The notes below the pieces were generated by a model. The model did no database searches. It was given only the letters and a program-made list of their open reading frames with translations, and was not told where the DNA came from. From Minisyncoccia bacterium (lineage in GTDB: Bacteria; Patescibacteriota; Minisyncoccia; UBA6257; 2-01-FULL-56-20), in the NCBI GenBank assembly GCA_049997875.1, contig JBEKRC010000003.1, positions 115,687 through 179,686 on the forward strand: DNA of 64,000 nt. Direction: 5' to 3'. Both the position numbers and the translations under genes were made by a program. This document shows positions 48,191-62,771 of this stretch, in pieces. Each line of letters starts with the position of its first letter. Position 1 is the stretch's first letter.

Positions 48191-48262
48191 TTCCGGCGTA
48201 GCTCAATGGTAGAGCGGCTCCCTGTTAAGGAGATGGTTCCAGGTTCGAGTCCTGGCGCCGGA
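48191..48262 (+). tRNA. tRNA-Asn (GTT)
   Basis: Acceptor TCCGGCG/CGCCGGA, anticodon loop CTGTTAA, T-arm CCAGGTTCGAGTCCTGG; anchor of the downstream repeat array. Confidence 0.85.
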
Positions 48263-48264
48263 GC

Positions 48265-48294
48265 ACCTAGTAAAAGTATCCGGGAGACCGAGAG
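48265..48294 (+). repeat. B-motif prototype (CCTAGTAAAAGTATCCGGGAGACCGAGAGG) directly after tRNA-Asn
   Basis: Recurs after most A-motif copies in the array. Confidence 0.7.
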
Positions 48295-48323
48295 GTCGTA
48301 GTCAATTCGATATACTTAAGATC

Positions 48324-48725
48324 ATGGATCAAAAGAAGATTGCTCCTATTATTGTCATTGTCGGTGCTACCGCCATGCTGGTCGGGGCACTTGATCCATT
48401 GGAAGGATCGGTCGTCATCCTGGTGGGCAGTGGCTTGGTGGCACTCGGCACATTCCTGAGCAATGCTAGCCGACGCTTGCGTGTTTACTGGATATGGACT
48501 TTCCTCCTGATAGCGTTCGGAGTCGGCGTGATGTTCGGAGCGAGCGCGATGGGAGGTTTTGGCGGCACTACCGGACGTTCGATATGGTGGGCAGTTCTAG
48601 TTCTGCCCTATCCTGTTGGCTGGGTGATGGGTGTCGTCAATCTGTTTTTCAGACTTAGACGAAAACGCGGTTATCGAGACAAGGGCGTTTTCCCCTCTCC
48701 CCCAGATTCTCACTTCGTCCAGTGA
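48324..48725 (+). CDS. Polytopic membrane protein (cassette 1)
   Basis: GATATACT -10; four TM helices. Confidence 0.6.
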   Translation: MDQKKIAPIIVIVGATAMLVGALDPLEGSVVILVGSGLVALGTFLSNASRRLRVYWIWTFLLIAFGVGVMFGASAMGGFGGTTGRSIWWAVLVLPYPVGWVMGVVNLFFRLRRKRGYRDKGVFPSPPDSHFVQ

Positions 48726-48735
48726 GCGGAGCGGA

Positions 48736-48765
48736 GAAAAATATAGTGAGTAGCGGGGTGGGGTA
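48736..48765 (+). repeat. G-rich C-motif (ATAGTGAGTRGCGGGGTGGGGTAAC), copy 1
   Basis: Also at 49993-50024 and 51319-51349, with a partial copy at 51581-51596. Confidence 0.6.
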
Positions 48766-48841
48766 ACTTTTTAGGTTAAGCCACCGGTTGCAAATCCGGT
48801 ATATAGATATGCTGATTTTCCTCTAATGCCTTGCAAATTCT

Positions 48842-48901
48842 GGTTCTAACGTCGTCCACGATGCGGAGCGGACAACATTTTTTATCGGATAGACCGAGAG
48901 G
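48842..48901 (+). repeat. Array repeat R1: A-motif (GGTTCTAACGTCGTCCACGATGCGGAGCGG) plus the B' variant
   Basis: Copy of the tRNA-Asn 3' end region. Confidence 0.75.
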
Positions 48902-48938
48902 CCCCAATTTTTCAAGATTCTTTAGAACCGAGGCAGGA

Positions 48939-48997
48939 GGTTCTAACGTCGTCCACGATGCGGAGCACCTAGTTAAAGTATTGGGGAGACCGAGAGG
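48939..48997 (+). repeat. Array repeat R2: A-motif plus B-motif
   Basis: 40 of 47 nt identical to the tRNA-Asn 3' end plus flank. Confidence 0.75.
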
Positions 48998-49077
48998 CAT
49001 CGGTTTGGCAGAAGCAGAAATCCATGCTATGTTCATTGCTGGAAGTTGGGTTTCAAAATTCTTTATTGGGGGTGGTT

Positions 49078-49278
49078 ATGTTACCAGGGAATCGGGTGCG
49101 AGTACGCGAAGAAAAGCGAGATGAGCCCCTGCTGCGAGGGTTGCCTCCCGTCCCTCCAAAGGGCTATGGGGTAGAGAAGGTGGTGAGTGACCCAGAGTGC
49201 CCCTTGGGAACGCAGGCTCAAATCCTCATAAAGCTGGATGGCGTAACAGATTTGTTGCCAGAGGTTCTTTTCCGTTAG
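49078..49278 (+). CDS. Small hypothetical protein (66 aa)
   Basis: ORF in the cassette between R2 and R3; weak. Confidence 0.3.
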   Translation: MLPGNRVRVREEKRDEPLLRGLPPVPPKGYGVEKVVSDPECPLGTQAQILIKLDGVTDLLPEVLFR

Positions 49279-49382
49279 GCGATGTGCCGATCAAATTACC
49301 AAGATGGGGTCGCGTCTGGCCCCATCCCAACTTAAACCTACAAAAAGCTTGCGGTTTTAGGTTGGGATAAGGTATTGATGGT

Positions 49383-49412
49383 GGTTCTAACGTCCTCCAG
49401 CCGCCGGGACGC
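49383..49412 (+). repeat. Array repeat R3 (A-motif)
   Basis: GGTTCTAACGTCCTCCAGCCGCCGGGACGC. Confidence 0.75.
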
Positions 49413-49562
49413 AATCCCGAAATTGGAAATGGGCAAGTCGTTTTCGACCTGCCCATTGTATCCGCCGATAGCATCTCGGGTTTCATCGACCCGTAGCGCT
49501 TGAAGGCCTCGGCGGGGGCCTTTCTTCCAGCAAACTAGAGGTTATCGTCGATCGCGATTGCG

Positions 49563-49934
49563 CTAGCGGAACGGACGCATCTTTTCCGTACACTTCCCGC
49601 AAACGACGACCCGCTTTTCGCCCTCGTCGGTCGCCATAATCCGAGATGCGTTCGGATAGTGGTGACACTTGTGGCACTCGCCGTCCGAATATGCCGCCCT
49701 GGGAAGCTTGGAGTAAACAATGCTTCCCGTGCCGACCGCGGTGCCCGCCTTCACCTCCCGCGGAGCAGGAGTGCAACCTCCTTTGCCGCGCCCTTGGCGG
49801 CGCAACTTCTTACGCATCCATCCCTTGCTCTTCCACGGATGGCCGCCATTGGCAGCCGTGTAGTCGATGTAGTGCATATACGCCTCCCTGGGTCCGAGCT
49901 TACATCCGACGCGGTGCAAAATGCAAACATCCAT
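49563..49934 (-). CDS. Zinc-ribbon-containing hypothetical protein
   Basis: CHKCHH...CGKC Cys/His clusters; hairpin terminator downstream at 49414-49446. Confidence 0.5.
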   Translation of the reverse strand: MDVCILHRVGCKLGPREAYMHYIDYTAANGGHPWKSKGWMRKKLRRQGRGKGGCTPAPREVKAGTAVGTGSIVYSKLPRAAYSDGECHKCHHYPNASRIMATDEGEKRVVVCGKCTEKMRPFR

Positions 49935-49961
49935 CTCGGGAAATCTGCGAACCTGATGCGA

Positions 49962-50024
49962 TTCTTACGTCATCCATCCACCTGTGCACCTCAAAACAAT
50001 AGTGAGTGGCGGGGTGGGGTAACC
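49962..50024 (+). repeat. Degenerate A-motif plus C-motif copy 2
   Basis: TTCTTACGTCATCCATCCACCTGTGCACC followed by AAAACAATAGTGAGTGGCGGGGTGGGGTAAC. Confidence 0.55.
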
Positions 50025-50097
50025 CTAGACTAAGGCTAATAATCCCCTGATTTCCCTCATAGCAAGAGTGGGATCGGGCAAGGCTGCCTCCCACCCA

Positions 50098-50158
50098 AAG
50101 GTTCGAAAGGCGTCCTGCCAAGCGAGCACCTAGTAAAAGTATCGGATAGACCGAGAGG
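50098..50158 (+). repeat. Degenerate A-motif plus B-motif
   Basis: ...CCAAGCGAGCACCTAGTAAAAGTATCGGATAGACCGAGAGG. Confidence 0.6.
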
Positions 50159-50167
50159 GGCAAAATA

Positions 50168-50207
50168 GTTCGAGCCGACCGTTGGTGTCATCGCGGGTCG
50201 GCTCGAC
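50168..50207 (-). terminator. Hairpin terminator (12-bp stem) downstream of the minus-strand gene 50255-51103
   Basis: GTTCGAGCCGACC...GGTCGGCTCGAC. Confidence 0.5.
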
Positions 50208-50254
50208 ATAGGAACTGTTCCATGCTTGGCGAGAAGTCGGCCAGGCTCGTGGTG

Positions 50255-51103
50255 TCAGAAGGTGAAACAACCCTTGAGGATGGTGGCAAAAGTACCATCA
50301 GCGGTTTCGAGGGTGACATCTCCCCGAATCGTGTGCACCCCAGGTCCGGCAATCCCCCCAGTCACGATCGTTTGCCCGTCATAGGAGACAAGGCCAGGCA
50401 CGACGCTGAAGCCCCCTTCAAAGCCCATTATCCCAAAATAGAAATCCATGGGCTGGTTTTTGGGGAAAGTGCCATAAATCGTAAAGAATTGGTACCCTTG
50501 AGCCGTCGTCGCCGTAACTACGTGATCGATGACGATCGGTCCAACCTCACCCGACGGCTGGGTCCAGAGAATGTATGCCGTCAGACGTGCATTTTGGATC
50601 ACCTCGCGGGTCGTCATATCATGGAACGTTACCAGGAAATCATAGCGTCCGTACTGCCACCCCTGGAACGTATCAGTCGCGAACAGTTTGGCACTATAGA
50701 GCTGGATGCTCGGGAAATAGCCTGGGGCGCTCTCGTTGGCGCCTCTTGCTCCGATGGGTCGAGCCCAAATGGGGCTGGACGCTGACCCATAGTAGTACTC
50801 CTCCACACTCACCGACACCGGATCGGTGATAGCCTGCAAAGCTTGGTACCAGAGTTCTATCGTGGATAGAGGCTGACAGAACTTACAGCTCTGGTTAAGC
50901 AGGAAGGGCGGGGCCGAAGTGCTCGTGGCAGCCGAATTGGCCTCGCTGGCTGACGCTTCGTCCACTTTTCCTTCGTGGACTAAAACCATTTTTGGCTTTT
51001 GGAACCGCGGTTCTCGGACCATGCTTTCCTGCCCGTAAGTCACCATACAACCGAATACAAACACGACTCCAGCGAACCCTACAATCCCACACAGTTTTCT
51101 CAT
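50255..51103 (-). CDS. Secreted hypothetical protein (282 aa)
   Basis: Perfect AAGGAGG RBS before the ATG at 51103; signal peptide MRKLCGIVGFAGVVFVFGCMV. Confidence 0.7.
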   Translation of the reverse strand: MRKLCGIVGFAGVVFVFGCMVTYGQESMVREPRFQKPKMVLVHEGKVDEASASEANSAATSTSAPPFLLNQSCKFCQPLSTIELWYQALQAITDPVSVSVEEYYYGSASSPIWARPIGARGANESAPGYFPSIQLYSAKLFATDTFQGWQYGRYDFLVTFHDMTTREVIQNARLTAYILWTQPSGEVGPIVIDHVVTATTAQGYQFFTIYGTFPKNQPMDFYFGIMGFEGGFSVVPGLVSYDGQTIVTGGIAGPGVHTIRGDVTLETADGTFATILKGCFTF

Positions 51104-51318
51104 ACTCTGACTTCCTCCTTGTGATCTCTTTTGTGAAATGCGAACTCCGGCGACATCATATGACATTTAATCTTAGTTTGTCAATAGTTCGTAATGGTTC
51201 AATAGCTTGGAACCACCCCGGAAATATTTCAAGCTATGTATATGGCATATAACAATAATCCCGAACATCCGCCGGTAATCAATTAACCAAATCTGACCCT
51301 GTGTAGATGATTTTGCCC

Positions 51319-51349
51319 TAAAACAATAGTGAGTGGCGGGGCGGGGTAA
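51319..51349 (+). repeat. C-motif copy 3
   Basis: AAAACAATAGTGAGTGGCGGGGCGGGGTAAA. Confidence 0.6.
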
Positions 51350-51411
51350 ATCAATCCAGTCGTGGTAATATAAGGTAAAGGCCGTTCACTAACAAATCAC
51401 CACTTATTACT

Positions 51412-51576
51412 ATGAACTCCTTATACGTTGTAGCGTTCGTTGTGCTGTTGGTAGCCGTCGTAGTCACCGTGGATATCCTGTTCTTCAGAAACCTGTTCTG
51501 GGAACGGCTGATGGTGAATGTTGGAATTGTCCTGATATTCGCAGCGTTCGGCTTGAGATTCCTGAAGCATCTATGA
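51412..51576 (+). CDS. Very small membrane protein (54 aa)
   Basis: Two TM helices; below the 60-aa cut-off of the ORF track; found by hand. Confidence 0.35.
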   Translation: MNSLYVVAFVVLLVAVVVTVDILFFRNLFWERLMVNVGIVLIFAAFGLRFLKHL

Positions 51577-51662
51577 AACCCGCGTGGGTGGGGTAATCAA
51601 ACTTTCACTGCTTCCGGCCTCAAGTCAGGGATGTAAATATACCCCTTTTGCTCCTCAATTCT

Positions 51663-51721
51663 GGTTCTAACGTCCTCCACGCGCCGGAGCGGCCAGGAGA
51701 AGTATCGGGGAGACCGAGAGG
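51663..51721 (+). repeat. Array repeat R4: A-motif plus B-motif
   Basis: GGTTCTAACGTCCTCCACGCGCCGGAGCGG followed by CCAGGAGAAGTATCGGGGAGACCGAGAGG. Confidence 0.75.
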
Positions 51722-52550
51722 CATCATCCCTTTTGTTACGGTCACACTCGCACGATCCAGACTCTCTGATTTCAGAAAAAAACAAGGGCATACGCCTGTT
51801 GCGTCGCCCTTTCTTGGATCCCCCGGAGGAGTGGAGAAGCTGCCGCCTGTACGAACTCGCCTCGTACCCTTGCGAGCACAATGCGGGTCCGTGAAGCGGA
51901 GCCTCTCTCACTTCCTTCGCGGTTTGAGAGCAAATGGATGAGGAGTATTTCCTGCCGTGAGGCCGGATCGGATTGTTGCTACCGCTTGCGCGATAGCCCG
52001 CCTTCTTGGAGTTTCCCATAAAGGATACTCCGCAGAACAGTGCCGAAGAGCACGCTCTCCGTCACCGGGAGATCGCCTCCCGAGGGTTCCGCTTACGCGG
52101 AACATCCCGGATGGCCCCGAATCCTCCACATTGCTGCGAAGGAGATCTCCATATGTATCTTCTGGCTGTTGCGCCAGATTCTCCCCATTCTGTCTCCGTG
52201 GGTTCGCAGCGACGGTTCCTTGCGGAACCTTTTCTCTCCCTAATCGCTAGGCAGAGCCGTCGCGCAGCACATCGTCCGTCGTGTGATAACTCGACCTTAT
52301 CGGCCAAGTCGTCCCTCGCGGATCGCTTGCCGTCGCCAAGGCTTTTTGCATCCCTTGCGAAACACTGAAGCGTTTGGTAAAACCCGCTGCTCTCATCTGA
52401 CAAACTCTGACAATGTACGTGATTATCATTCTATAGGTGTCACGGGGATGGTCAATGCTCAAAAGGCTAAGAAACTGAATAGGCTGTGGAATGCTTGTGG
52501 GGAATATGGATTTATATAGCAATCTGCCTCAAGAAGGGCTTCCCCAGCCA

Positions 52551-52609
52551 GATTCTCCCATCCTCCAGCCGCCGGAGCGGCTAGTAAAAGTATCGGGGAG
52601 ACCGAGAGG
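52551..52609 (+). repeat. Array repeat R5: degenerate A-motif plus B-motif
   Basis: GATTCTCCCATCCTCCAGCCGCCGGAGCGG followed by CTAGTAAAAGTATCGGGGAGACCGAGAGG. Confidence 0.75.
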
Positions 52610-52640
52610 CGTCGCGCTTGCTATAATGAGCGTGAACATC

Positions 52641-53126
52641 ATGGAACAATCACCTTCGAATTTCTGGAAAAATATTCCCAAGAAAAGAATGGGGACGGGC
52701 GCGCTCATCTTTAACGAGAAGAGTGAGGTATTAATTGTGAAACCGACCTACAAAGGTCATTGGTCCGTTCCTGGTGGCGTTGTTGACGCCAATGAGTCTC
52801 CGCGTGAAGCATGCATGCGAGAGATTAAGGAGGAAATCGGACTGATCATGCCAGAACTTCACTTTATATGCGTCGCATACCAACGCAATTCAGGCACCGA
52901 GAAAGGAGAAAGTCTTCAGTTCATGTTTTACGGCGGCGTTCTTATCCAAGACACAATTGAGCAAATTGTCATCTCAAAAGAAGAAATTGCGGAGTTTAAG
53001 TTCGTGGATATGAAAATGGCATTGTCTCTCTTGAACAGTGCCCTCGCCAATCGCCTGTCGCTCTCAATGGAAGCGATCAAGAAAAATCAACCTTTCTATC
53101 TGGAACGAGAGAATGCGGATTCTTAA
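52641..53126 (+). CDS. NUDIX hydrolase (cassette)
   Basis: GGVVDANESPREACMREIKEEIGL Nudix box; TATAAT 14 nt upstream. Confidence 0.8.
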   Translation: MEQSPSNFWKNIPKKRMGTGALIFNEKSEVLIVKPTYKGHWSVPGGVVDANESPREACMREIKEEIGLIMPELHFICVAYQRNSGTEKGESLQFMFYGGVLIQDTIEQIVISKEEIAEFKFVDMKMALSLLNSALANRLSLSMEAIKKNQPFYLERENADS

Positions 53127-53131
53127 GCAGA

Positions 53132-53160
53132 GGTTCTAACGTCGTCCAGCCGCCGGAGCA
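53132..53160 (+). repeat. Array repeat R6 (A-motif)
   Basis: GGTTCTAACGTCGTCCAGCCGCCGGAGCA. Confidence 0.75.
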
Positions 53161-53185
53161 GACAGGTTTTTGCTATAATCGCTTT

Positions 53186-53842
53186 ATGATCAAGGCGGTC
53201 ATATTCGACATGGACGGTCTCATGATTGACAGCGAACCGATCCAATCGAAATCATTCGAGTATGTTCTCAGGACTCATGACAAAGCGCCGATTTTCAACC
53301 CCAACGGTTTGATCCAGACGATAGGCATCACCGCAAAGGATAATTGGATTCTGTTAAAAGAAAAACACAATCTTACCGCCAGCGTAGCGTCCCTCTTGGC
53401 AAAAAAAAGAAGTGTCTATGGGAAATTACTGAAAGAGAACGTCAAACCACAAAAAGGACTGTTCTCCCTTATCAAAAAGTTGAAAAAAGGGGGGTTCAAA
53501 CTGGGCATCGCCTCTTCGTCCAAGTTAAGCAATATCAAGCTGGTGTTGTCCTCTCTTCATTTGAGCCGCTCGTTTGACGTAATACTATCCGGAGAATCAC
53601 TCACCCGTGGGAAACCGCACCCTGACATCTTTTTGGAAACAGCGAGGAAACTAAGCGTGGATCCAAGCGACTGCGTTGTCCTCGAAGACGCAGAGAGCGG
53701 GGTGGAAGCGGCGCATCGCGCGAAGATGAAGGTCATTGCGGTGCCGAACAAATTTACCCGTGATCATGATTTCAAAAAAGCGGATCTCGTCGTTTCCAGC
53801 CTGGGGAAAATCACACCAAGAACACTCCGGAACAGGTTCTAA
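53186..53842 (+). CDS. HAD-superfamily hydrolase (beta-phosphoglucomutase-like subfamily)
   Basis: N-terminus AVIFDMDGLMIDSE (DxD); downstream GKPHPDIF and LEDAESGVEAA motifs. Confidence 0.85.
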   Translation: MIKAVIFDMDGLMIDSEPIQSKSFEYVLRTHDKAPIFNPNGLIQTIGITAKDNWILLKEKHNLTASVASLLAKKRSVYGKLLKENVKPQKGLFSLIKKLKKGGFKLGIASSSKLSNIKLVLSSLHLSRSFDVILSGESLTRGKPHPDIFLETARKLSVDPSDCVVLEDAESGVEAAHRAKMKVIAVPNKFTRDHDFKKADLVVSSLGKITPRTLRNRF

Positions 53843-53862
53843 CATAGTCTAAGCGCCGGAGC
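53835..53862 (+). repeat. Array repeat R7 (degenerate A-motif)
   Basis: GGTTCTAACATAGTCTAAGCGCCGGAGC. Confidence 0.6.
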
Positions 53863-53928
53863 AAATAAAGTGGCCAGCACATCGGTCTGGCCACTCGGTT
53901 GAACTTTCATTAAGGGAAGGAGCGAGCA

Positions 53929-54174
53929 TCATGCTGACATCGTGGCGACGTCGGTATCCAGTTGCGCCTGGAGCAGAGATCCCCCCTCCCTGTAGGCCGA
54001 CTCGTACGCTGTCTCGTCGGTGCCGAAAGATACCTTCCCTTCGGAGACCTTAGAGCCTAGAGCCGAAACTGACGGCACGAAGCCTTTCCCCAGGAAAGAA
54101 TCCACGTGCGCAATGCTAAACTCGTAGATACTCTCGGTTGCTACGATATCGGTGCGATTCTTCTTCCACCTCAT
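53929..54174 (-). CDS. Small hypothetical protein (81 aa), downstream member of an overlapping gene pair
   Basis: ATGA start/stop overlap with the 54171-54479 gene. Confidence 0.4.
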   Translation of the reverse strand: MRWKKNRTDIVATESIYEFSIAHVDSFLGKGFVPSVSALGSKVSEGKVSFGTDETAYESAYREGGSLLQAQLDTDVATMSA

Positions 54175-54479
54175 TGTCCTACCTCCCTACGGGAACGAAT
54201 GCCCGTTTTTGGTCGTTGCGACATAAGGAAGGATGCGAATCGCATCTCCCCTTGTCCTTCCCTTACGTATACCCGAATCTTGAGGTTGCTTTGGAATGCG
54301 CTCCGTCTCAAGTAGGAGAGTTTTCGGGACCCGACGCGGTAGATGTCGTGCTTGATTCCTTGACTATCGCGGATATCCCGCAAAACATCCTCCTCAGGTA
54401 ACTCCCTAGCTAGTGCCGCATTAGTATTGGCATCGAGCGGCTCTACAAACCAATCGTACGTTCGTTTCCTTTTTCCCAT
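54171..54479 (-). CDS. Small basic hypothetical protein (102 aa), upstream member of the overlapping pair
   Basis: GAGAGGTG RBS before the ATG at 54479. Confidence 0.45.
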   Translation of the reverse strand: MGKRKRTYDWFVEPLDANTNAALARELPEEDVLRDIRDSQGIKHDIYRVGSRKLSYLRRSAFQSNLKIRVYVREGQGEMRFASFLMSQRPKTGIRSRREVGQ

Positions 54480-54563
54480 AGAACACACCTCTCTTCCACG
54501 AAAAGATGGCTGGCTATCACGATATTCGCAGACAACGCACTAGGTGTCAATCCGCGCCAAACA

Positions 54564-54593
54564 GGTTCTAACGTCCCCCAGCCGCCGGAGCGG
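54564..54593 (+). repeat. Array repeat R8 (A-motif)
   Basis: GGTTCTAACGTCCCCCAGCCGCCGGAGCGG. Confidence 0.75.
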
Positions 54594-54726
54594 ATAGGAT
54601 TTGCAAATCGTTTCAAACTTGAAACCATTACAACTGTAGTGAGCTCAAGTTTACGCCCGATCCATTAGCCTCCTTTCTGGTTGACTAATCGGGCGTTTGA
54701 TTTAGAAGGAACTCCGCCCCGATACC

Positions 54727-55011
54727 TCATTGCGCAGTCGTTGGAGAGTGTCCCTCACCTAGCACTGTGGTGAACCTAGGACGAAATCTGGCCTGCCACC
54801 ATCGGTCCCTTTTCCGGAACCACTCCTCCACTTCTTTCGGAGATCTCCCCTCCAGGGTTTCGGCGAGTTGCATGATAGCATACTGCACAACGAAAGACCT
54901 CGAAGCCTTGTGATACCCTTGTCGCTGAAGCGTTGCCTTAATAGCGTCCAAACTTTCTGCCTGATCCTGGTAAAGACTGATTGCCCGTATCACGTATCTT
55001 CGTTTGGACAT
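54727..55011 (-). CDS. Ribbon-helix-helix (CopG/Arc-like) small DNA-binding protein
   Basis: KRRYVIRAISLY strand followed by an SRSFVVQYAIMQL helix. Confidence 0.5.
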   Translation of the reverse strand: MSKRRYVIRAISLYQDQAESLDAIKATLQRQGYHKASRSFVVQYAIMQLAETLEGRSPKEVEEWFRKRDRWWQARFRPRFTTVLGEGHSPTTAQ

Positions 55012-55122
55012 ATTCTTACCACCTTCCTTTCGATATGAATGTGCAATTGCAAGTTATAAGCCTAAAAAGTGTGATTGTCAACAAACGCCATCAATCGGAG
55101 GTGGCATAATCCTCACCAGAGA

Positions 55123-55152
55123 GGTTCTCACCTCCTCCAGTCGCCGGAGCGG
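55123..55152 (+). repeat. Array repeat R9 (A-motif)
   Basis: GGTTCTCACCTCCTCCAGTCGCCGGAGCGG. Confidence 0.75.
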
Positions 55153-55260
55153 ATAGGTTTTCACACCGCAAAGAGCCGAAGTTTGCACATCCCTTGATTG
55201 TGTGTCTATACTGGAACCAGGACTGGGAATTATCCCAGCATTTAAAAGGAGGGTTAGGCC

Positions 55261-55716
55261 ATGAAAAGACTGTTATGGGTTGCTACCGCGCTAGTGGCAA
55301 TTTGTGTATTCATCCAGGCACCAGTTGTGGGACAAACGGACAATGTGACGATCGCACCCCAAGCTCCGGTGGCAGAGCATCAACTGCTGGAAGCGAAGAT
55401 CGACGAGAAACTCCTTCTGCCGGGCGAGAAGCAATGTTCATTCTTTCTCCTCACGACGTTTGGTGGCAGACTGAAGCCGGGGATTCGTTTCCAATTCCTC
55501 GACAACGGTCCTCCAAAGAAAATCAAGGTGGAGATTGTTCCCGTCACAAAAATCCGCGTCATCATAGATGAACAGAAAAGTCTGCCCACAGCCGAGAAGG
55601 TCGAGAATGACAATGGAGAGTTCATCTGGTTACTCCGGTTGAGTACTAAGACTTACGAACCTTGTAAGGATTGCCTACCAGAGCCGACCAAACCACCGGC
55701 ATCCCCACAAAAGTAG
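55261..55716 (+). CDS. Secreted hypothetical protein (151 aa)
   Basis: TATACT -10; AAAAGGAGGG RBS; signal peptide. Confidence 0.7.
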   Translation: MKRLLWVATALVAICVFIQAPVVGQTDNVTIAPQAPVAEHQLLEAKIDEKLLLPGEKQCSFFLLTTFGGRLKPGIRFQFLDNGPPKKIKVEIVPVTKIRVIIDEQKSLPTAEKVENDNGEFIWLLRLSTKTYEPCKDCLPEPTKPPASPQK

Positions 55717-55824
55717 CGCCGATTGCTTTCAGTTCCGGGCGCGCAGCACCGGCATCGCCGATGCTACCTCCGCCCACTCCCCCAAGATCGGCAACAAAGG
55801 TTGATGATTTTAGGTGAGACAACA

Positions 55825-55854
55825 GGTTCTCACATCGTCCAGCCGCCGGAGCGG
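55825..55854 (+). repeat. Array repeat R10 (A-motif)
   Basis: GGTTCTCACATCGTCCAGCCGCCGGAGCGG. Confidence 0.75.
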
Positions 55855-55902
55855 AAAGTTGATGCGGACAAGAACTTTTTCTGGTATGCTAGAGCTTGAT
55901 AT

Positions 55903-56469
55903 ATGATCAAGTTTGTTTTTCATGGCGGCGCTACGAGAAAACCTCTTGAAGGAAATAAGCGGTTTTTTGCCGAAATGGTTCGGGGCCTCCGCGAGCCTAT
56001 TAAGATATTGAATGTCTATTTCGCGAGGGAGGAAAGTCGATGGAACGAAGCGATGGAAGATGACAAGCAAAACTTTCGGAATGCCGCACCGAATATCAAA
56101 ATGGAGTTTTCCTTAGCGAACCCCGAATCTTTCGTGACACAGGTCAAAGATGTGGGCGTGGTCTATGTGCGCGGCGGGAGTACTCCCCTCCTCAAGAAGG
56201 CCTTTGAACCATTTTCTCAATTTCTCACACTCCTCGATGGAAAAGTCTATGGCGGCTCCTCTGCTGGAGCCGACGTTCTTGCAAAATACTATTGCTCTAG
56301 AGAATCTGACGAAATCCTAGAAGGACTTGGCCTCCTGCCCATCAAAGTATTCCCTCATTATGACGAAAGCGAGCGAGAGAAACTGGAAAAACTTAAGGCA
56401 TGGAAGGAGGATCTGCCGACATACACCATAGCAGAGGGAGAGTATTTTATTTACAAAAACAGGTTCTAA
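55903..56469 (+). CDS. Peptidase S51 (dipeptidase E)-like protein
   Basis: VYVRGGSTPLL and GGSSAGADVL resemble the GGNTF and GxSAG motifs of PepE. Confidence 0.65.
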   Translation: MIKFVFHGGATRKPLEGNKRFFAEMVRGLREPIKILNVYFAREESRWNEAMEDDKQNFRNAAPNIKMEFSLANPESFVTQVKDVGVVYVRGGSTPLLKKAFEPFSQFLTLLDGKVYGGSSAGADVLAKYYCSRESDEILEGLGLLPIKVFPHYDESEREKLEKLKAWKEDLPTYTIAEGEYFIYKNRF

Positions 56470-56520
56470 CGTCGTCCAGCTCGCGGAGCGGGCAACATTT
56501 TTTATCGGACAGACCGAGGG
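56462..56520 (+). repeat. Array repeat R11: A-motif plus the B' variant
   Basis: GGTTCTAACGTCGTCCAGCTCGCGGAGCGG followed by GCAACATTTTTTATCGGACAGACCGAGGG (B' as in R1). Confidence 0.75.
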
Positions 56521-56563
56521 GCGTAGCAAAATATCTTGAAGCTTCGTTTGCTACAATTGAGGT

Positions 56564-57196
56564 ATGAATAAGAAAGGATTTGCGACGCTCGCGATCGCGT
56601 TGATTGTCGTGGCCATTCTGATCGCTGGCGGTGTTTGGTATTACATGAAAAACATTTCTTCACCGACCCAATTGGTCGCTTGTACCCAGGAAGCGAAGGA
56701 ATGCCCCGACGGTTCCTACGTTGGGCGCACCGGTCCCAATTGCGAATTTGCCGCTTGCCCGGGCATGACAACAACTACATCCTCAATACCGTTGCCAACA
56801 GCCTATGTGAATGTTCTCTATAACGGTTTATTGCACATAGCGACTTCCAATATCTCAACACTGGGCCAGTTACCCCCGGGGCTATCACTTGTCCCGATGG
56901 AACATGGTTGCGTACCGTCTGAGCCACAATGCCCTCAAAATGATTTTTATCTCCACGGGCAAGCTACGCAAGCGGGAACATATGCATTCAGTGTTGTATT
57001 TTCTATTGACGGCGATCAAATTACCCAATCCTATCACATACAGGTCTTACCACAAAATCAGGAATCGGCACACAATACCTGCGAGAGCAATTTTGATTGC
57101 CCCGCAGGACAAACGTGTATGGTGACCGGTCCGATCATAGCGGGTAGAACAATCCAAAAAAATTGTTATCCAGCAGGACAAGCGGCACCCCAATAG
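56564..57196 (+). CDS. Membrane-anchored Cys-rich secreted protein (210 aa)
   Basis: TACAAT -10; GAGGT RBS; N-terminal TM; about 14 Cys. Confidence 0.7.
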   Translation: MNKKGFATLAIALIVVAILIAGGVWYYMKNISSPTQLVACTQEAKECPDGSYVGRTGPNCEFAACPGMTTTTSSIPLPTAYVNVLYNGLLHIATSNISTLGQLPPGLSLVPMEHGCVPSEPQCPQNDFYLHGQATQAGTYAFSVVFSIDGDQITQSYHIQVLPQNQESAHNTCESNFDCPAGQTCMVTGPIIAGRTIQKNCYPAGQAAPQ

Positions 57197-57223
57197 GTTC
57201 TTACGTTGTCCACACTCCGGAGC
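57196..57223 (+). repeat. Array repeat R12 (degenerate A-motif)
   Basis: GGTTCTTACGTTGTCCACACTCCGGAGC. Confidence 0.65.
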
Positions 57224-57249
57224 ATCGTTTAGTGTGCTATAATAAAAAC

Positions 57250-57381
57250 ATGCTTTGGACAATCATCATCGTTCTATTCGTTCTTTGGTTATTGGGATTC
57301 GGCTTCAAAATTGGAGGGAAATTGATTCACGTACTGCTCGTGATCGCTCTCATTGTGATCATCTATCGGCTTTTGTTCTAA
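57250..57381 (+). CDS. Small membrane protein (43 aa), lmo0937-like family
   Basis: MLWTIIIVLFVLWLLGF...LIHVLLVIALIVIIY; TATAAT 9 nt upstream. Confidence 0.5.
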   Translation: MLWTIIIVLFVLWLLGFGFKIGGKLIHVLLVIALIVIIYRLLF

Positions 57382-57394
57382 CTGATGAGAAAGG

Positions 57395-58063
57395 CTATTG
57401 CGCAGCGTCAGTGAAAACGACCAACCTTTGGGTGTAGCTTAATTGGGCCTGATTCCAAGAACCTTCACAGGTGATAAGGTTAAGATGGGCGCCGCCATCA
57501 GTAGAGGTAAAAACATCAATGGCGTCCGCTGATGGATCGTAACTACGGCTCTCGCGAACCGTGAAAGTGGCGGACTCTCCTTTGTCGTTTAAAACATACA
57601 GTTTGTCTCCCGCGCTCAATTCGTTCAAATCATTAAAAACGCCAAGCTTCGTGACTACCCCCTTGCGTATCTGGGCGATATGTCCGGTGATAATGGCAAC
57701 GCCCCTCTCCCCTGGACGCGCACTGCCCGTAAACCACCCAACGTCATAAATATTGCTTGGCACCTCCATTGTGCCATCGGACTTGAGACCAGTATATTGA
57801 AAGCCTGCGTCGATATTGAGCTTTGGGATTATGAGACGCACCGGGGACCCATCTTCGTTTTTTGCAATCATCGCACCCGTCGTTCCGACTGTAGTGGTCG
57901 TTAATGATATCGTCTGAGTTACAACCTGTATTGCCTGCGTTGCAACCATGATCGCTTGTTGTTGCTGCGCAACCGACAGGGAAGTATTATTCTGAACCGA
58001 TACGATAAGCGATAGTGCCAACTGTAATATTGTTGATAAAATTGAAGGCATTGTAATAATCAT
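57395..58063 (-). CDS. Sortase (class E/F-like transpeptidase)
   Basis: ITGHI (His), LNLITCEGS (Cys) and RLVVF (Arg) catalytic triad; N-terminal TM. Confidence 0.8.
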   Translation of the reverse strand: MIITMPSILSTILQLALSLIVSVQNNTSLSVAQQQQAIMVATQAIQVVTQTISLTTTTVGTTGAMIAKNEDGSPVRLIIPKLNIDAGFQYTGLKSDGTMEVPSNIYDVGWFTGSARPGERGVAIITGHIAQIRKGVVTKLGVFNDLNELSAGDKLYVLNDKGESATFTVRESRSYDPSADAIDVFTSTDGGAHLNLITCEGSWNQAQLSYTQRLVVFTDAAQ

Positions 58064-58084
58064 AACAAAAATAGGTCTAGCATC

Positions 58085-58109
58085 CTCTTTAGTATCGGAT
58101 GGACCGAGG
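58085..58109 (+). repeat. Isolated B-motif copy
   Basis: CTCTTTAGTATCGGATGGACCGAGG. Confidence 0.5.
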
Positions 58110-58180
58110 CATAGCCCTGGGTATGGGCAAAAGAAAAAAGCGCCCCGAGAAAGGCACTCTTTTCTTCTGGAACGAGGTAC

Positions 58181-58411
58181 TTACATCTTCCCTTCGTGCG
58201 TTGCCCAACAACCGCAGGATCTCTTACCCAGCTTCAGACATCCCGCGATGATAACAAGAATCGGCCAGATGACGTTGACGAATCCCCACGTGAGGACGCC
58301 GAGCGATCCGAGCAAGAAGTCCAGCCCGAAAAGGATGACGAGGATCGGCATGGTCTTATGGCATCCGCACCCGCACGTCTTCCCGCCCATTTTTATGCCG
58401 TCATTTTCCAT
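58181..58411 (-). CDS. Small Cys-rich membrane protein (76 aa)
   Basis: GAGGT RBS; CGCGCH and CGCW motifs flanking a TM segment. Confidence 0.45.
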   Translation of the reverse strand: MENDGIKMGGKTCGCGCHKTMPILVILFGLDFLLGSLGVLTWGFVNVIWPILVIIAGCLKLGKRSCGCWATHEGKM

Positions 58412-58470
58412 GGTACGTAGTTTTGTGCATACTCGACCTTTCGCTGATTATGTTTTCCATTTCATTATAC

Positions 58471-58490
58471 CTCGTCCAGCCGCCGGGGGC
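58471..58490 (+). repeat. Partial A-motif (CTCGTCCAGCCGCCGGGGGC); last detectable array repeat
   Basis: Only the 3' half of the motif is present. Confidence 0.55.
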
Positions 58491-58525
58491 AAAACAAAAA
58501 CCCGCAACAATATGCGGGTTTTTGC
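58491..58525. terminator. Rho-independent terminator (bidirectional)
   Basis: AAAAACCCGCA-acaatat-GCGGGTTTTTG. Confidence 0.7.
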
Positions 58526-58544: not shown

Positions 58545-59246
58545 CTATTGCTGCGCCGAGGTCGCCGGAATCGAGACATCCCTCACGATCTGCGCAGTGA
58601 TCGTTCCGCTTGCGTTCACGCCCCAGACACGAACGTTGTCACCGCTATTGATGCTTGCGAGGGGAAGCGTGATCCAATTCCGATTAACCACTTCGGCGCC
58701 GGAAGCGACATTCACCGTATCAGCCACGCCATTCACGGTTAAGGTGAACGAGCTGCCGCTCAGACTGCTTGCCACGCCGACGTAGTTCCTCGGCGTGCCG
58801 CTCTTTATCGTGGTCTGCGCCGATTGAATATTCTGCTTCTGCTCCTGGACTGTCGCCTGACGATAGGTCCAGTCACGCACGAGCGTGGCATCGATTGTCC
58901 AATTTGCCGATTGGGAAACCGTTCCCTGGACACCCACGAAATCGCCGGTCCTGAACTGGGCGAGGTCGTTGCCTGCCGCTACAGGAAGCACCTGGGCAGA
59001 AGCCCCGACATTCACCGTCCAGACGCCACCCCAACTGTTCACGGTGAGCGCGCCGCTTGTTGCGGAAGCAAGGGTGCCCCGCATGAGAACCTTACCCGCA
59101 GGACCGATCTGCAAAATCGGCTGCTCAGACGCGGTTGTCAGAGCCGATGCGGCGGCTGGTGCCGTCGTTTGGGCGGCTGCGATGAATGCCGTCGCCACCA
59201 CCGCAACTCCCGTTGCGACGCTTGCGATACATAATATCTTTTTCAT
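58545..59246 (-). CDS. Secreted hypothetical protein (233 aa)
   Basis: Signal peptide; internal repeats of about 70 aa (GTLASATSGALTVNSWGGVWTVNV / SSLSGSSFTLTVNGVADTVNV). Confidence 0.7.
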   Translation of the reverse strand: MKKILCIASVATGVAVVATAFIAAAQTTAPAAASALTTASEQPILQIGPAGKVLMRGTLASATSGALTVNSWGGVWTVNVGASAQVLPVAAGNDLAQFRTGDFVGVQGTVSQSANWTIDATLVRDWTYRQATVQEQKQNIQSAQTTIKSGTPRNYVGVASSLSGSSFTLTVNGVADTVNVASGAEVVNRNWITLPLASINSGDNVRVWGVNASGTITAQIVRDVSIPATSAQQ

Positions 59247-59476
59247 TTGAATATCCTTTATGTTCTCGACCTTTACGCTCTTTGCTTACGCCCATTATAC
59301 GAAATTTGAAGCAATTTGGTTGCTATAAGGATCGCTTGCGTCGGTTGACGGCTTGCGGATATCGGATGGGTTTTTCGACTCTTTTTACCATACCAAAACT
59401 GTTCAGGAAGTGGGTGGATTCCACACCCTGTCTTTGCGGCCGTTCCCGTTCGGATCGTCAAACTTCATGCCCGAGA

Positions 59477-61132: not shown

Positions 61133-61292
61133 GTATTATTGTTATTAGTTAATTTTAAGAACGTTATTTATCTATTGGATCTAACGTCATCGACCGACCT
61201 CAACGTTGAGACACCACAATAGGGTGCCGTTCCTATGGCCGGTTCATTACAGCGCAGGGTATGGCGAGCGGCGGGATGGGGTTAATCAATGC

Positions 61293-61805: not shown

Positions 61806-61900
61806 TACTTTATACCATGCCCGAGCTTTAAGTATGGCACATTATGCATCTTATAGCAAGTTGTTTGTAATAACTCAGGCGCTCGGACGGCTTCTTAATT

Positions 61901-62452: not shown

Positions 62453-62468
62453 CACCCAGGGGGTATAA

Positions 62469-62768: not shown

Positions 62769-62771
62769 CCA

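What the first reader, a model, noticed from the sequence alone, without database searches (positions are those of the whole stretch)
48191..58525. About 10 kb integron-like cassette array anchored at tRNA-Asn, punctuated by direct repeats that copy the tRNA 3' end
Downstream of tRNA-Asn there are at least 14 same-orientation copies of a composite repeat of about 60 nt. The A-motif is GGTTCTAACGTCGTCCAGCCGCCGGAGCGG and the B-motif is CTAGTAAAAGTATCGGGGAGACCGAGAGG. Together they copy the tRNA-Asn T-stem/acceptor 3' half plus 30 nt of downstream flank, with 40 of 47 nt identical in the best copy.

The repeats sit at 48842, 48939, 49383, 49962, 50098, 51663, 52551, 53132, 53835, 54564, 55123, 55825, 56462, 57196 and 58471.

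They separate single small genes or gene pairs of about 0.4-0.9 kb: a membrane protein, a Zn-ribbon protein, two secreted proteins, a NUDIX hydrolase, a HAD hydrolase, an overlapping small-gene pair, an RHH protein, a peptidase S51-like protein, a Cys-rich protein, an lmo0937-like peptide and a sortase. Most genes carry their own TATAAT-like -10 box.

Repeat orientation is constant while gene orientation varies. That argues the repeats are recombination-site or boundary elements rather than gene promoters. Cassette size and cargo type resemble chromosomal integron arrays, but the boundaries are direct tRNA-derived repeats rather than canonical attC palindromes. No integrase is present in the window.

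This may be an undescribed tRNA-att-based cassette capture system, or serial tandem integration of mini-elements.
Basis: partly seen in the sequence, partly recalled or inferred. Interest (0 to 1): 0.92.

Follow-up and report, generated by a model that had tools for sequence, protein, structure and literature searches.

The report
Serine-recombinase attachment scars at tRNA-Asn
The repeats downstream of tRNA-Asn are leftover attachment sites of mobile elements that insert with a large serine recombinase, each made of the last codons of that recombinase gene plus a tRNA 3' end, and they mark a gene-accretion hotspot found across the tiny-genome CPR bacteria.

Summary
At least 13 strong and 5 degenerate same-strand copies of a ~32-nt motif follow tRNA-Asn, and the array runs on to about 63.7 kb.

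The motif is not simply a tRNA copy. Read on the minus strand it encodes (W/P/L)-L-R-x-L-D-D-V-R-T, the conserved C-terminus of a very large CPR family of large serine recombinases (LSRs). In related contigs, full-length LSR genes converge on tRNA-Asn. When integrated, their tail is replaced by codons read from the complement of the tRNA T-arm (…LR·x·DSNL…). The displaced DDVRT tail plus a tRNA 3' end sits at the far end of the element. That is the repeat.

So attP lies inside the 3' end of the recombinase gene. The window holds an attL scar at the tRNA and a row of att relics separating one-gene cargo units. No recombinase body remains.

The same motif array, anchored at tRNA-Asn, recurs in hundreds of CPR contigs. 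Close relatives carry different cassettes, with homology breaking at the predicted crossover.

It is not an integron: there are no attC palindromes and no IntI. It is tandem accretion by a serine recombinase. The units may be cassettes still mobilised in trans.

The parts
48192..48264 (+). tRNA-Asn(gtt), the anchor (B-left half of the attachment site: T-arm plus acceptor 3' strand)
   Evidence: ARAGORN; Rfam tRNA. In 26 genome loci and 22 of 23 metagenome loci that hold a tRNA-Asn 5' half, it lies upstream of the motif copies on the same strand.
48265..48295 (+). B stub directly after the tRNA. With the tRNA it forms an attL-type scar; the minus strand reads ...SRSPGYFY*VLRR|QDSN.
   Evidence: Sequence read; compared with the attL of L247, L134 and L156, where a recombinase gene abuts the tRNA. 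Inference.
48324..48725 (+). Cargo 1: small membrane protein (133 aa, no Pfam hit). The ORF runs into site S1.
   Evidence: A homologue in L099 sits at a non-first position in that array.
48705..48735 (+). Site S1 (minus strand reads PLRSLDEVRI)
48737..48902 (+). Site S2 with a long recombinase tail: B' (48737-48766), tail ...DDVRTRICKALEENQHIYIPDLQPVA* (48776-48841), core 48842-48873, right stub Bvar 48874-48902 (GPLGLSDKKCC-PLR)
   Evidence: BLASTP of 48776-48904(-) against the LSR P0020 C-terminus gives E 2e-7.
48939..48999 (+). Site S3 core (48939-48970) plus B stub
49383..49414 (+). Site S4
49563..49934 (-). Cargo: Zn-ribbon protein (123 aa)
   Evidence: Pfam Zn_ribbon_TFIIS, weak, below cutoff.
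49960..50022 (+). Degenerate site S5 (VHRWMDDVRI), followed by B' (49993-50022), the distal tail stub of the next site
   Evidence: B' matches the tail ...DVRTCL.YPTP... of L141 and its in-frame continuation ...LTHYCFE read from the DNA left of the L165 copy.
50098..50158 (+). Site S6 of a different tail type (VLAWQDAFRT, like L137 MLAWQGSFRT) plus B stub
50255..51166 (-). Cargo: secreted protein (303 aa, no Pfam hit)
51320..51349 (+). B' tail stub
   Evidence: (family D10).
51412..51576 (+). Cargo: 54-aa hydrophobic ORF
   Evidence: sequence read.
51597..51721 (+). Site S8: complete recombinase tail PLRRVEDVRTRIEEQKGYIYIPDLRPEAVKV* (51597-51694 on the minus strand) plus B stub (51695-51721)
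   Evidence: BLASTP of 51600-51725(-) against the L220 LSR: 17/27 identical, E 1e-10, aligned to residues 536-562 of 562.
52551..52609 (+). Site S9 plus B stub (best copy of the tRNA 3' end and flank)
   Evidence: (family D5, 89%).
52641..53126 (+). Cargo: NUDIX hydrolase
   Evidence: Pfam 5.6e-18.
53132..53163 (+). Site S10 (LLRRLDDVRT)
53186..53842 (+). Cargo: HAD hydrolase. Its stop codon is the TAA inside site S11.
   Evidence: Pfam 4e-35.
53835..53866 (+). Site S11
53929..54488 (-). Cargo: overlapping pair of small genes (81 and 105 aa), toxin-antitoxin-like in layout, no Pfam hit
54564..54595 (+). Site S12
54727..55011 (-). Cargo: 94-aa protein (no Pfam hit)
55123..55154 (+). Site S13
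55261..55716 (+). Cargo: secreted 151-aa protein
55825..55856 (+). Site S14 (PLRRLDDVRT)
55903..56469 (+). Cargo: peptidase S51-like protein. Its stop codon lies inside site S15.
   Evidence: Pfam 3.4e-10.
56462..56522 (+). Site S15 plus Bvar stub (PLGLSDKKCC-PLRELDDVRT)
   Evidence: (family D9).
56564..57196 (+). Cargo: Cys-rich secreted protein (210 aa)
57196..57227 (+). Site S16 (MLRSVDNVRT)
57250..58411 (.). Cargo: DUF5670 peptide (57250-57381 +), sortase (57395-58063 -), eroded B-type stub (58091-58108), LiaF-TM-like protein (58181-58411 -)
   Evidence: Pfam; (family D8). L099 has an intact A+B site at the place where the window has only the stub.
58463..58490 (+). Partial site S17. Homology with L067 and L099 stops at ...GTCCAGC inside it.
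58545..63731 (.). Distal, older part of the array: secreted 233-aa protein, ice-binding/SpaA protein, weak site at 61176, ECF-sigma-like plus PAS-like pair (shared with L035 next to a motif copy), CSD protein, 165-aa protein, degenerate site 63702-63731

Best explanation
The array is an accretion island built at tRNA-Asn by mobile elements that integrate with a large serine recombinase (LSR).

In this LSR family the element's attachment site (attP) lies inside the 3' end of the recombinase gene itself. The crossover falls in the 5-nt 'variable' centre of the repeat. That centre sits between the codons for ...(W/M/L)LR, which are the complement of the tRNA acceptor 3' end CGGAGC(CA), and the codons for LDDVRT..., which are the complement of GGTTCTAAC(R)TC(S)TCC.

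Integration into the acceptor 3' strand of tRNA-Asn rebuilds the tRNA from element DNA. It fuses the recombinase ORF to codons read from the complement of the T-arm (...LRxxDSNL...). It also strands the last 8-30 codons of the recombinase at the far end of the element, next to a tRNA 3' end.

New elements insert next to the tRNA and push older ones outward. Recombinase bodies and element backbones are then lost in these deletion-prone genomes, while cargo genes and the att stubs remain.

What is shown:
- the coding identity of the repeat;
- the attL, attR and attP-like states in relatives;
- the tRNA-Asn anchoring across phyla;
- cassette differences between relatives that break at the predicted crossover.

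What is inferred:
- the order of events;
- that occupied sites remain targets for new insertions;
- whether the one-gene units can still move.
For: 1. The repeat is coding on the minus strand.
- The reverse complement of the motif reads W/P/L-L-R-x-L-D-D-V-R-T.
- Two copies keep the whole tail down to its stop codon. They align to the extreme C-terminus of LSR proteins, with E 1e-10 and 2e-7.
- Among the 13 window copies, which were found without any pattern bias, the three most variable positions of GGTTCTAACGTCGTCC are 6, 9 and 12. Each shows 5 changes. These are the third codon positions of Val, Asp and Asp on the minus strand.

2. The recombinases exist in relatives.
- An LSR profile finds 7 full-length genes and about 19 fragments in loci that were fetched only because they hold the motif.
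- Pfam confirms Resolvase + Recombinase + Zn_ribbon_recom.
- ORFs that end ...LDDVRTCF span an intact motif (L243, L220, L106).
- ORFs that abut tRNA-Asn end ...LLRREDSNLQPSP, ...MLRGWDSNPRP or ...SMLRRLDSNQRPTA (L134, L165, L156, L247).
- In L134 and L165 the next motif copy lies 7.3 and 11 kb away, in the place expected for attR.

3. The crossover can be placed.
- L220 (attP-like) and L247 (attL) are identical to the right of TCCA(G/A)|CCGCCGGAGCATTGATTGAGATCG.
- To the left of that point L220 has the recombinase tail and L247 has the tRNA T-arm.

4. The family is very large.
- More than 6669 proteins score at E<=1e-20, and sources name them as Patescibacteria recombinases.
- At least 34 of the best 120 have tRNA-fused tails.
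- Carriers are real mobile elements, with replication, relaxase and defence genes.

5. The array pattern recurs.
- 185 copies in 118 genome blocks and 179 copies in 120 metagenome contigs.
- Orientation is never mixed within a locus.
- tRNA-Asn lies upstream on the same strand.

6. Relatives at about 87-90% nucleotide identity share a few cassettes in different contexts.
- L099 has an extra 2.2-kb unit next to the tRNA.
- The LiaF-TM cassette has three different right-hand neighbours, and homology ends at ...GTCCAGC.

7. Site quality falls only at the distal end of the window array. nhmmer bits are 29-39 up to 57.2 kb, then 9.6, 4.0 and 15.4. This fits the oldest units lying furthest from the tRNA.
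Against: - No LSR gene or body fragment is present in the 64-kb window or in the 10 kb beyond it. The acting enzyme for this genome is therefore unseen.
- The same strain in four other samples has an identical array. There is no direct sign of present-day movement.
- By the canonical rules for LSRs, attP recombines with attB, not with attL. Repeated insertion at an occupied tRNA is therefore an assumption.
- Five B stubs and four short stubs end at the same nucleotide. Independent random deletions of recombinase bodies would not predict this. It fits cassettes with a defined site better.
- The sequence to the right of CGGAGC is only loosely recombinase-like in several window copies.
- The loci from other genomes were fetched with a pattern that fixes 20 bases, so cross-genome conservation figures are inflated.
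Confidence: 0.8

Rival explanations
1. The units are living cassettes. Each is a recombinase-less circle made of a right stub, a cargo gene and the left tail stub, and so carries a minimal attP. It would be captured at tRNA-Asn and excised by an LSR supplied in trans. This would be a serine-recombinase counterpart of an integron. It refines the best explanation rather than contradicting it.
For: - Ten consecutive units of 0.56-0.89 kb hold a single gene or gene pair.
- Stub boundaries recur. B ends at ...GACCGAGAGGC in 5 units, and GGA(T/C)AGGTTTT occurs in 4 units.
- L026 has at least 6 units with the same ~125-nt module: motif, hairpin, FEP-codon block, then promoter.
- L161 has 8 copies in 5.9 kb.
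- Solitary gene-plus-motif units lie outside any array (L084, L063, L045).
- Cargo ORFs often end inside the motif (...NRF*).
- The left halves differ at synonymous sites, so they come from different recombinase alleles rather than from local duplication.
Against: - No circular junctions or gain/loss events have been observed.
- Arrays are identical across samples of one strain.
- Larger recombinase pseudogene fragments in other loci show that plain decay does occur.
- An attP x attL reaction is not canonical for LSRs.
Confidence: 0.35
2. It is a true integron or CALIN: attC sites recombined by an IntI tyrosine recombinase, with the tRNA serving as attI.
For: - A same-orientation array of small cassettes in which some ORFs are reversed.
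- GTTCTAAC resembles an R'' box (RYYYAAC).
- About 10% of copies have an inverted GTT(C/A)GAAC partner ~80 nt downstream.
Against: - Inverted partners are no more frequent downstream than upstream, apart from that one subfamily.
- The subfamily's 'partner' is the F-E-P codon block of the recombinase gene.
- There is no covariation for any hairpin.
- No IntI, XerD, Cre or lambda Int-like protein was detected in 1.57 Mb around the copies.
- The motif is conserved in sequence rather than in structure, which is the opposite of attC.
Confidence: 0.02
3. It is a tRNA island made by tyrosine-integrase elements (tycheposon-like or P4-like), and the repeats are decayed partial tRNAs.
For: - The repeats share their last ~16 nt with the tRNA-Asn 3' end.
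- The tRNA anchoring and the push-outward logic match tycheposon islands.
- L099 has a tRNA-like remnant lacking the tail block at one boundary.
Against: - The copies agree with each other, and with recombinase codons, rather than with the tRNA T-arm.
- No tyrosine recombinase was found.
- Serine recombinases are found at exactly the expected junctions.
Confidence: 0.05
4. It is a host regulatory or 3'-UTR/terminator repeat, or a structured RNA, spread by duplication and unrelated to mobile DNA.
For: - The motif lies between the stop codon and an intrinsic terminator in AT-rich genomes.
- In L026 the stub hairpin plausibly terminates cargo transcripts.
Against: - No Rfam match.
- No base-pair covariation.
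- The orientation is fixed whatever the gene strand.
- The variation has coding periodicity, and full recombinase genes contain the motif.
Confidence: 0.03

Closest known systems
SCC elements (SCCmec and ccr-less pseudo-SCC/composite islands) at the 3' end of rlmH/orfX in staphylococci (own knowledge); Enterococcus cassette chromosome (title listed, PMC6222049, not read)
   Same: - Large serine recombinases act at the 3' end of one conserved gene.
- Direct repeats contain that gene's end.
- Tandem arrays include units without a recombinase, which can be moved in trans.
   Different: - The target here is a tRNA, not a protein gene.
- Units are 0.4-1 kb single genes rather than 10-60 kb.
- attP lies inside the recombinase ORF, so the repeat carries recombinase codons.
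- The hosts are CPR bacteria.
- Relatedness to CcrA/B was not tested.
Tycheposons and tRNA-seeded genomic islands of Prochlorococcus (bioRxiv 10.1101/2020.12.28.424599, read)
   Same: - Islands grow at tRNA genes by successive integrations that push older elements outward.
- Partial-tRNA repeats separate cargo.
- Recombinase-free remnants occur.
- The host genomes are streamlined.
   Different: - Tycheposons use tyrosine recombinases, and their repeats are plain partial tRNAs.
- Here the enzyme is a serine recombinase, and the repeat is mostly recombinase coding sequence.
Integrons (IntI, attI, attC cassette arrays, CALINs)
   Same: - One-gene cassettes in a same-orientation array.
- Insertion at one primary site, newest nearest that site.
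- Cargo ORFs overlap the site.
- Arrays occur without an adjacent recombinase.
- Single cassettes occur elsewhere in the genome.
   Different: - No tyrosine IntI.
- No folded attC dyad.
- The site is conserved in sequence and derives from a gene end.
- The primary site is a tRNA.
SSV-type integrases of archaeal viruses and plasmids (attP inside int; integration partitions the gene; own knowledge)
   Same: - The attachment site lies within the recombinase ORF.
- Integration into a tRNA splits the gene and leaves its C-terminal piece at the far junction.
   Different: - Those are tyrosine recombinases, and they are split near the middle or the N-terminal part.
- Here only the last 8-30 codons of a serine recombinase are exchanged, for tRNA-encoded residues.
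Accretion of cis-mobilisable elements (CIMEs) next to ICEs such as ICESt1/ICESt3 (own knowledge)
   Same: Recombinase-less units flanked by att sites accumulate in tandem and can be co-excised by a neighbour's recombinase.
   Different: Those use a tyrosine integrase, insert at the 3' end of a protein-coding gene, form few units, and the units are large.

Membership tests
Integron / CALIN | An IntI-type tyrosine recombinase next to the primary site (or at least in the genome) | tested here: not met
Nothing scored below E 0.3. The genes flanking the array are housekeeping or secreted proteins. Sensitivity is limited.
Integron / CALIN | attC: an imperfect dyad with R''/L'' and L'/R' boxes, conserved in structure but not in sequence | tested here: not met
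   An inverted partner of GTTCTAAC occurs downstream in 18 of 176 copies and upstream in 10 of 176. Only 8 of 176 copies reach Smith-Waterman score >=18. There is no pairing covariation.
Integron / CALIN | A same-orientation array of short cassettes, mostly one ORF each | tested here: met
Large-serine-recombinase integrative element | A protein with Resolvase catalytic domain, Recombinase domain and zinc ribbon | tested here: met
   Met in related loci: L243 scores 8e-22, 2e-18 and 3e-6, and L172 also qualifies. There are 7 full-length genes and more than 6669 homologues. Not met inside the window, where only C-terminal stubs remain.
Large-serine-recombinase integrative element | Recombinase gene adjacent to one junction; attL and attR are hybrids of attP and attB halves | tested here: met
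   L134, L165 and L247 show tRNA-Asn | LSR, with the ORF fused to T-arm complement codons. The tail-bearing motif lies at the distal end. The L220 attP-like site and the L247 attL share their right half and differ in their left half.
Large-serine-recombinase integrative element | Short (~40-50 bp) sites with imperfect dyad symmetry around a central dinucleotide | tested here: inconclusive
   There is a near-palindrome TCC-N7-GGA centred on the variable region. For L243, the two arms match at 11 of 22 positions by a hand count on the sequence. The exact dinucleotide is not determinable.
Large-serine-recombinase integrative element | A recombination directionality factor for excision | not tested
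   No candidate was sought.
SCC-like cassette chromosome | Tandem units, including recombinase-less ones, bounded by direct repeats of the target gene's 3' end | tested here: met
   The window array and an internal intact LSR in L243. Homology of the recombinase to Ccr proteins was not tested.
Tycheposon | A tyrosine recombinase hallmark gene | tested here: not met

The most novel reading that the evidence does not exclude
CPR bacteria may carry a serine-recombinase analogue of the integron. One-gene cassettes would have as their only mobile feature a ~60-130-nt stub of a recombinase gene's 3' end, which is a minimal attP. They would be captured at tRNA-Asn and shuffled by LSRs supplied in trans by plasmid-like elements. 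The recombinase itself would swap its C-terminal tail (DDVRT... against tRNA-encoded DSNL...) on integration. That swap could act as a built-in switch between the integration-competent and the resident state.
Probability: 0.3. Interest if true: 0.85.

Novelty: new variant of a known kind. Interest (0 to 1): 0.62.

Why it matters
CPR/Patescibacteria have tiny genomes and few recognised mobile elements, yet up to 13% of genome length has been attributed to horizontal transfer (PMC12455944). That paper gives no mechanism involving recombinases or tRNAs.

This locus points to one concrete and widespread route. A very large LSR family targets tRNA genes and leaves readable scars. Those scars define a conserved accretion hotspot for small secreted, envelope, hydrolase and toxin-antitoxin-like genes.

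Practical consequences:
- The scars give a simple sequence handle for finding these islands in metagenomes.
- The family offers many natural LSR / attP / attB(tRNA) triplets, which are of interest as genome-engineering tools.
- It is an unusual case in which the attachment site is embedded in the recombinase's own coding end.

Tried and rejected
1. RNA element. Rfam finds only the tRNA. Mutual information and explicit pair counts for a T-stem-like helix and a TCC/GGA helix show no covariation.

2. attC architecture. Three separate searches for inverted partners found only a ~10% subfamily. That subfamily was later explained by the recombinase F-E-P codons.

3. Linked recombinase by neighbour clustering. 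The most recurrent neighbours were rpoD, ABC transporters, methyltransferases, Fic and NYN, not recombinases.

- It correctly found no tyrosine recombinase.
- It wrongly suggested there was no serine recombinase. Gamma-delta resolvase scores the LSRs only at E 0.1-0.9. Following up those weak hits with Pfam broke the case.

5. I first read the conserved stretch upstream of one subfamily as the C-terminus '...KSGI*' of + strand genes. It is the complement of the recombinase tail ...IYIPDL.

6. I first read B' as lying to the right of its site. It is the distal tail of the next site.

7. Phage origin. Only 1 of 2.9 million IMG/VR contigs holds the motif.

8. Dif/Xer, boxA and Ter resemblances of the motif were considered by eye and dropped as weak.

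9. A weak LSR-profile hit at window 20154-20447 is a chance match in a coiled-coil protein.

10. Literature. No paper holds the motif sequence or describes LSR/tRNA-Asn arrays in CPR.

Full report
**1. Checking the observation**

ARAGORN and Rfam place tRNA-Asn(gtt) at 48192-48264 on the + strand. All copies are on the + strand.

- Thirteen copies are strong: 48705, 48842, 48939, 49383, 51663, 52551, 53132, 53835, 54564, 55123, 55825, 56462, 57196.
- Three copies are degenerate: 49960, 50098, 58463.
- Two more lie beyond the stated end: 61176 (weak) and 63702.

Chance does not explain the copies: the consensus matches 5 times against 0 in shuffles. The second motif, B, a copy of the 30 nt after the tRNA, follows several copies at a fixed offset. 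The cargo annotations largely hold. The array is bounded by ordinary genes. GAPDH, DUF192, a lamin-tail-domain protein and a small membrane-anchored protein lie upstream. The genes prs and pur lie downstream, just beyond the window.

**2. The motif is widespread and anchored at tRNA-Asn**

I scanned species-representative genomes with a degenerate form of the motif. Nearly all come from CPR/Patescibacteria lineages, with a few from Omnitrophota, Ignavibacteria, Bdellovibrionota-like and WOR-1 bins.

- A profile finds 185 and 179 copies in the two sets, often in arrays of 3-9.
- Orientation is never mixed within a locus.
- Where a tRNA is present it is overwhelmingly tRNA-Asn, upstream of the copies and on the same strand. 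This holds for 16 of 23 tRNA-bearing blocks by ARAGORN, and for 26 blocks when 5' halves are searched, which also recovers intron-containing genes. It holds for 22 of 23 metagenome contigs.

So this is a conserved kind of locus, not a local oddity.

**3. What the motif is not**

It is not a known RNA. It shows no base-pair covariation. It lacks the inverted-repeat architecture of integron attC sites, except in about a tenth of copies. No tyrosine recombinase turned up anywhere in about 1.57 Mb of flanking sequence. Only one IMG/VR viral contig holds the motif.

**4. What the motif is**

Two weak resolvase hits (E 0.1 and 0.9) proved by Pfam to be large serine recombinases, with Resolvase, Recombinase and Zn_ribbon_recom domains. 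A profile built from them found 7 full-length genes and about 19 fragments in loci that had been fetched solely for the motif.

The C-termini explain the repeat.

- Intact genes end ...(W/M/L)LRxLDDVRT(C/Y/I)(F/L)... The DNA for that peptide is the exact reverse complement of the motif: TGG CTC CGn nnn nTG GAC GAT GTT AGA ACC.
- The window copies translate on the minus strand to PLRRLDDVRT, LLRRLDDVRT and similar.
- Two window copies keep the whole tail down to its stop codon. They align with the last 27 residues of LSR proteins: 63% identity at E 1e-10, and 56% at E 2e-7.
- Among the 13 window copies, which carry no ascertainment bias, the variable positions of the left block are 6, 9 and 12. 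These are the third codon positions of Val, Asp and Asp. The copies therefore descend from different recombinase alleles that diverged under protein-level selection. They did not arise by local duplication of one scar.

**5. States of the site in relatives**

In L134, L165, L156 and L247 the recombinase gene converges on tRNA-Asn. Its ORF runs into the tRNA on the opposite strand and ends ...LLRREDSNLQPSP...MLRGWDSNPRP...WLRRQDSNLEPYP or ...SMLRRLDSNQRPTA. The residues D-S-N are the complement of the T-loop GGTTCGAATCC. This is the attL state.

In L134 and L165 a motif copy carrying the displaced DDVRT tail lies 7.3 and 11 kb further on. This is the attR position.

L220 (intact tail) and L247 (tRNA-fused) belong to one subfamily at 94% protein identity. 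Their DNAs are identical to the right of TCCA(G/A)|CCGCCGGAGCATTGATTGAGATCG. To the left, one has the recombinase tail and the other has the T-arm.

The crossover therefore sits in the 5-nt 'variable' centre of the motif, inside a near-palindrome TCC-N7-GGA. That position corresponds to the acceptor 3' strand of the tRNA. The invariant CGGAGC(CA) serves at once as the end of the tRNA and as the codons for (W)LR. This explains two things:

- why the right part of the repeat looks like the tRNA;
- why it tends to track the 3' trailer of the host's own tRNA gene (CCA gives Trp, CAC gives Val).

L243 carries an intact recombinase whose ORF spans a motif inside an array. This is the junction expected between tandem elements.

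**6. Other repeats in the window**

- B' (GTGAGTGGCGGGGTGGGGTAAC) is the complement of a more distal piece of the recombinase tail. The tail reads ...DVRTCL.YPTP... in the L141 fragment, and the DNA to the left of the L165 copy continues it in frame as ...LTHYCFE. B' belongs to the site on its right.
- Bvar reads ...GPLGLSDKKCC-PLR. This resembles ...VVLSENKN-WLR of the tRNA-fused fragment in L156.
- B is the same DNA motif out of frame and with stop codons.

Both Bvar and B are therefore best read as stubs of recombinase codons just upstream of the crossover. This is an inference with moderate support. On that reading, the tRNA plus B at the head of the window array is an attL scar, not an empty site.

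The copy at 50098 belongs to another tail type: LAWQDAFRT, compare L137.

A profile search of all window reading frames of at least 15 codons finds only positions 524-544 of the 549-position recombinase profile. No recombinase body is left.

**7. The recombinase family and its carriers**

More than 6669 database proteins match at E<=1e-20, and the sources call them recombinases of Patescibacteria. Of the best 120, at least 34 have tRNA-fused tails and 9 have intact DDVRT tails.

Carriers are genuine mobile elements:

- L247 has HTH_36 and IstB/DnaA-like replication genes, plus Fic, RadC, a methyltransferase and a helicase.
- L245 and L246 have Replic_Relax, a TrwB-like protein and defence genes.

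Among solved structures, only the catalytic domains of the TP901-1 integrase and a putative conjugative-transposon recombinase match by sequence.

**8. Evidence for turnover**

- L099 (OY970175.1) is 87-91% identical in the shared segments. It has an extra 2.2-kb unit between tRNA+B and the window's first cassette.
- The LiaF-TM cassette occurs in the window, in L099 and in L067 with three different right-hand neighbours. Homology stops at ...GTCCAGC, the predicted crossover.
- The sigma/PAS pair recurs next to a motif copy in a distant lineage, L035.
- Solitary gene-plus-motif units lie between housekeeping genes or after other tRNAs (L084, L063, L045).
- By contrast, the same strain in four other samples has the same array, so movement is not fast.
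- Site quality drops only at the distal end of the window array, as expected if the newest units lie nearest the tRNA.

**9. Mechanism and its uncertainties**

The best-supported account is serial integration at tRNA-Asn by LSR elements, followed by loss of recombinase bodies and backbones. Confidence is about 0.8 for the identity of the repeats and the kind of process.

Two points remain open.

- LSRs canonically recombine attP with attB, not with attL. Since the right half of this attB lies almost wholly outside the tRNA and is not conserved between hosts, I infer that occupied sites stay usable. This is untested.
- The stubs end at recurrent, sharp boundaries, and units are one gene long. 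That fits recombinase-less cassettes with a minimal attP, mobilised in trans, better than it fits random decay. I give that refinement about 0.3-0.35.

**10. Comparison with known systems and novelty**

The logic matches three known cases:

- tRNA-seeded islands and tycheposons, but those use tyrosine recombinases;
- SCC arrays at rlmH, which use serine recombinases but have large units and a protein-gene target (own knowledge);
- SSV-type integrases, where attP lies within the int gene, but those are tyrosine recombinases (own knowledge).

Function resembles an integron, but the defining features of an integron were tested and not met.

I found no description of this family or these arrays in the searchable literature. 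A 2025 study of Patescibacteria islands mentions neither recombinases nor tRNAs.

I rate it a new variant of a known kind, with interest 0.62. A specialist would be moderately surprised by three things: serine recombinases that target tRNAs on this scale, an attachment site embedded in the recombinase's own coding end, and the cassette-like arrays in CPR genomes.

Noticed in passing
L099 943-1160 (OY970175.1, about 520.9 kb): The tRNA-Asn of this close relative carries a ~210-nt insertion in the anticodon loop. It matches the Rfam group I intron model weakly (22.6 bits, E 0.0011, below the gathering score). ARAGORN misses such genes, and about 10 further loci needed a 5'-half search to find their tRNA-Asn.
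   Followed up: partly
window 51722-52550: About 830 nt between two sites has no convincing ORF and no Rfam hit. It contains a terminator-like hairpin at 52214-52229. It could be a decayed gene or an unknown RNA.
   Followed up: no
window 13000-19000: A low-GC block (41-44% against ~55%) holds nucleotide-metabolism genes: adenosine deaminase, a NUDIX/nucleotidyltransferase fusion, an NDK-like protein and a methyltransferase. No recombinase and no motif copy are present.
   Followed up: partly
L084 3170-3688; L063 4247-4935; L045 1022-1845: Single gene-plus-motif units lie outside any array. A GNAT-like gene (by its sequence; no Pfam run) sits between an enolase-like and an amidohydrolase-like gene. 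An NYN-like gene sits just after tRNA-Glu. A racemase-like gene sits near tRNA-Leu, next to a LAGLIDADG-like ORF.
   Followed up: partly
L246 10001-11848: An LSR with an intact tail (...LRALDDIRT...) ends ~90 nt before a convergent tRNA-Ser(gct) without being fused to it. Many database homologues have tails fused to T-arms of differing sequence (DSNQ, DSNP, ESNP). Subfamilies probably use different tRNAs.
   Followed up: no
L226 8149-8686: This is the one exception to the orientation rule: a motif copy on the minus strand next to a plus-strand tRNA-Asn 5' half.
   Followed up: no
L124 14300-14723 (IMG/VR UViG_3300009529_003397): The only viral-collection hit. The motif sits at a contig end and is followed by a GC-rich stretch that looks structured, within AT-rich DNA. 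It was not analysed.
   Followed up: no
L026 1-5200 (minus strand): In this AT-rich Parcubacteria array, each recombinase stub supplies a hairpin plus T-run that looks like the terminator of the upstream cargo gene. A TGnTATAAT promoter follows directly. The scars appear to have been put to use for expression.
   Followed up: partly
loci L002, L008, L009, L111 and others: Contigs with typical CPR-style arrays come from bins labelled Gammaproteobacteria, Methanosarcinales, Acholeplasmataceae and so on. These are probably mislabelled or contaminated bins, so the apparent spread outside CPR should be treated with care.
   Followed up: no
window 53929-54488: Two overlapping small minus-strand genes (81 and 105 aa) have the layout of a toxin-antitoxin pair but no Pfam match. 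They form a reversed cassette, as is typical for TA cassettes in integron arrays.
   Followed up: no
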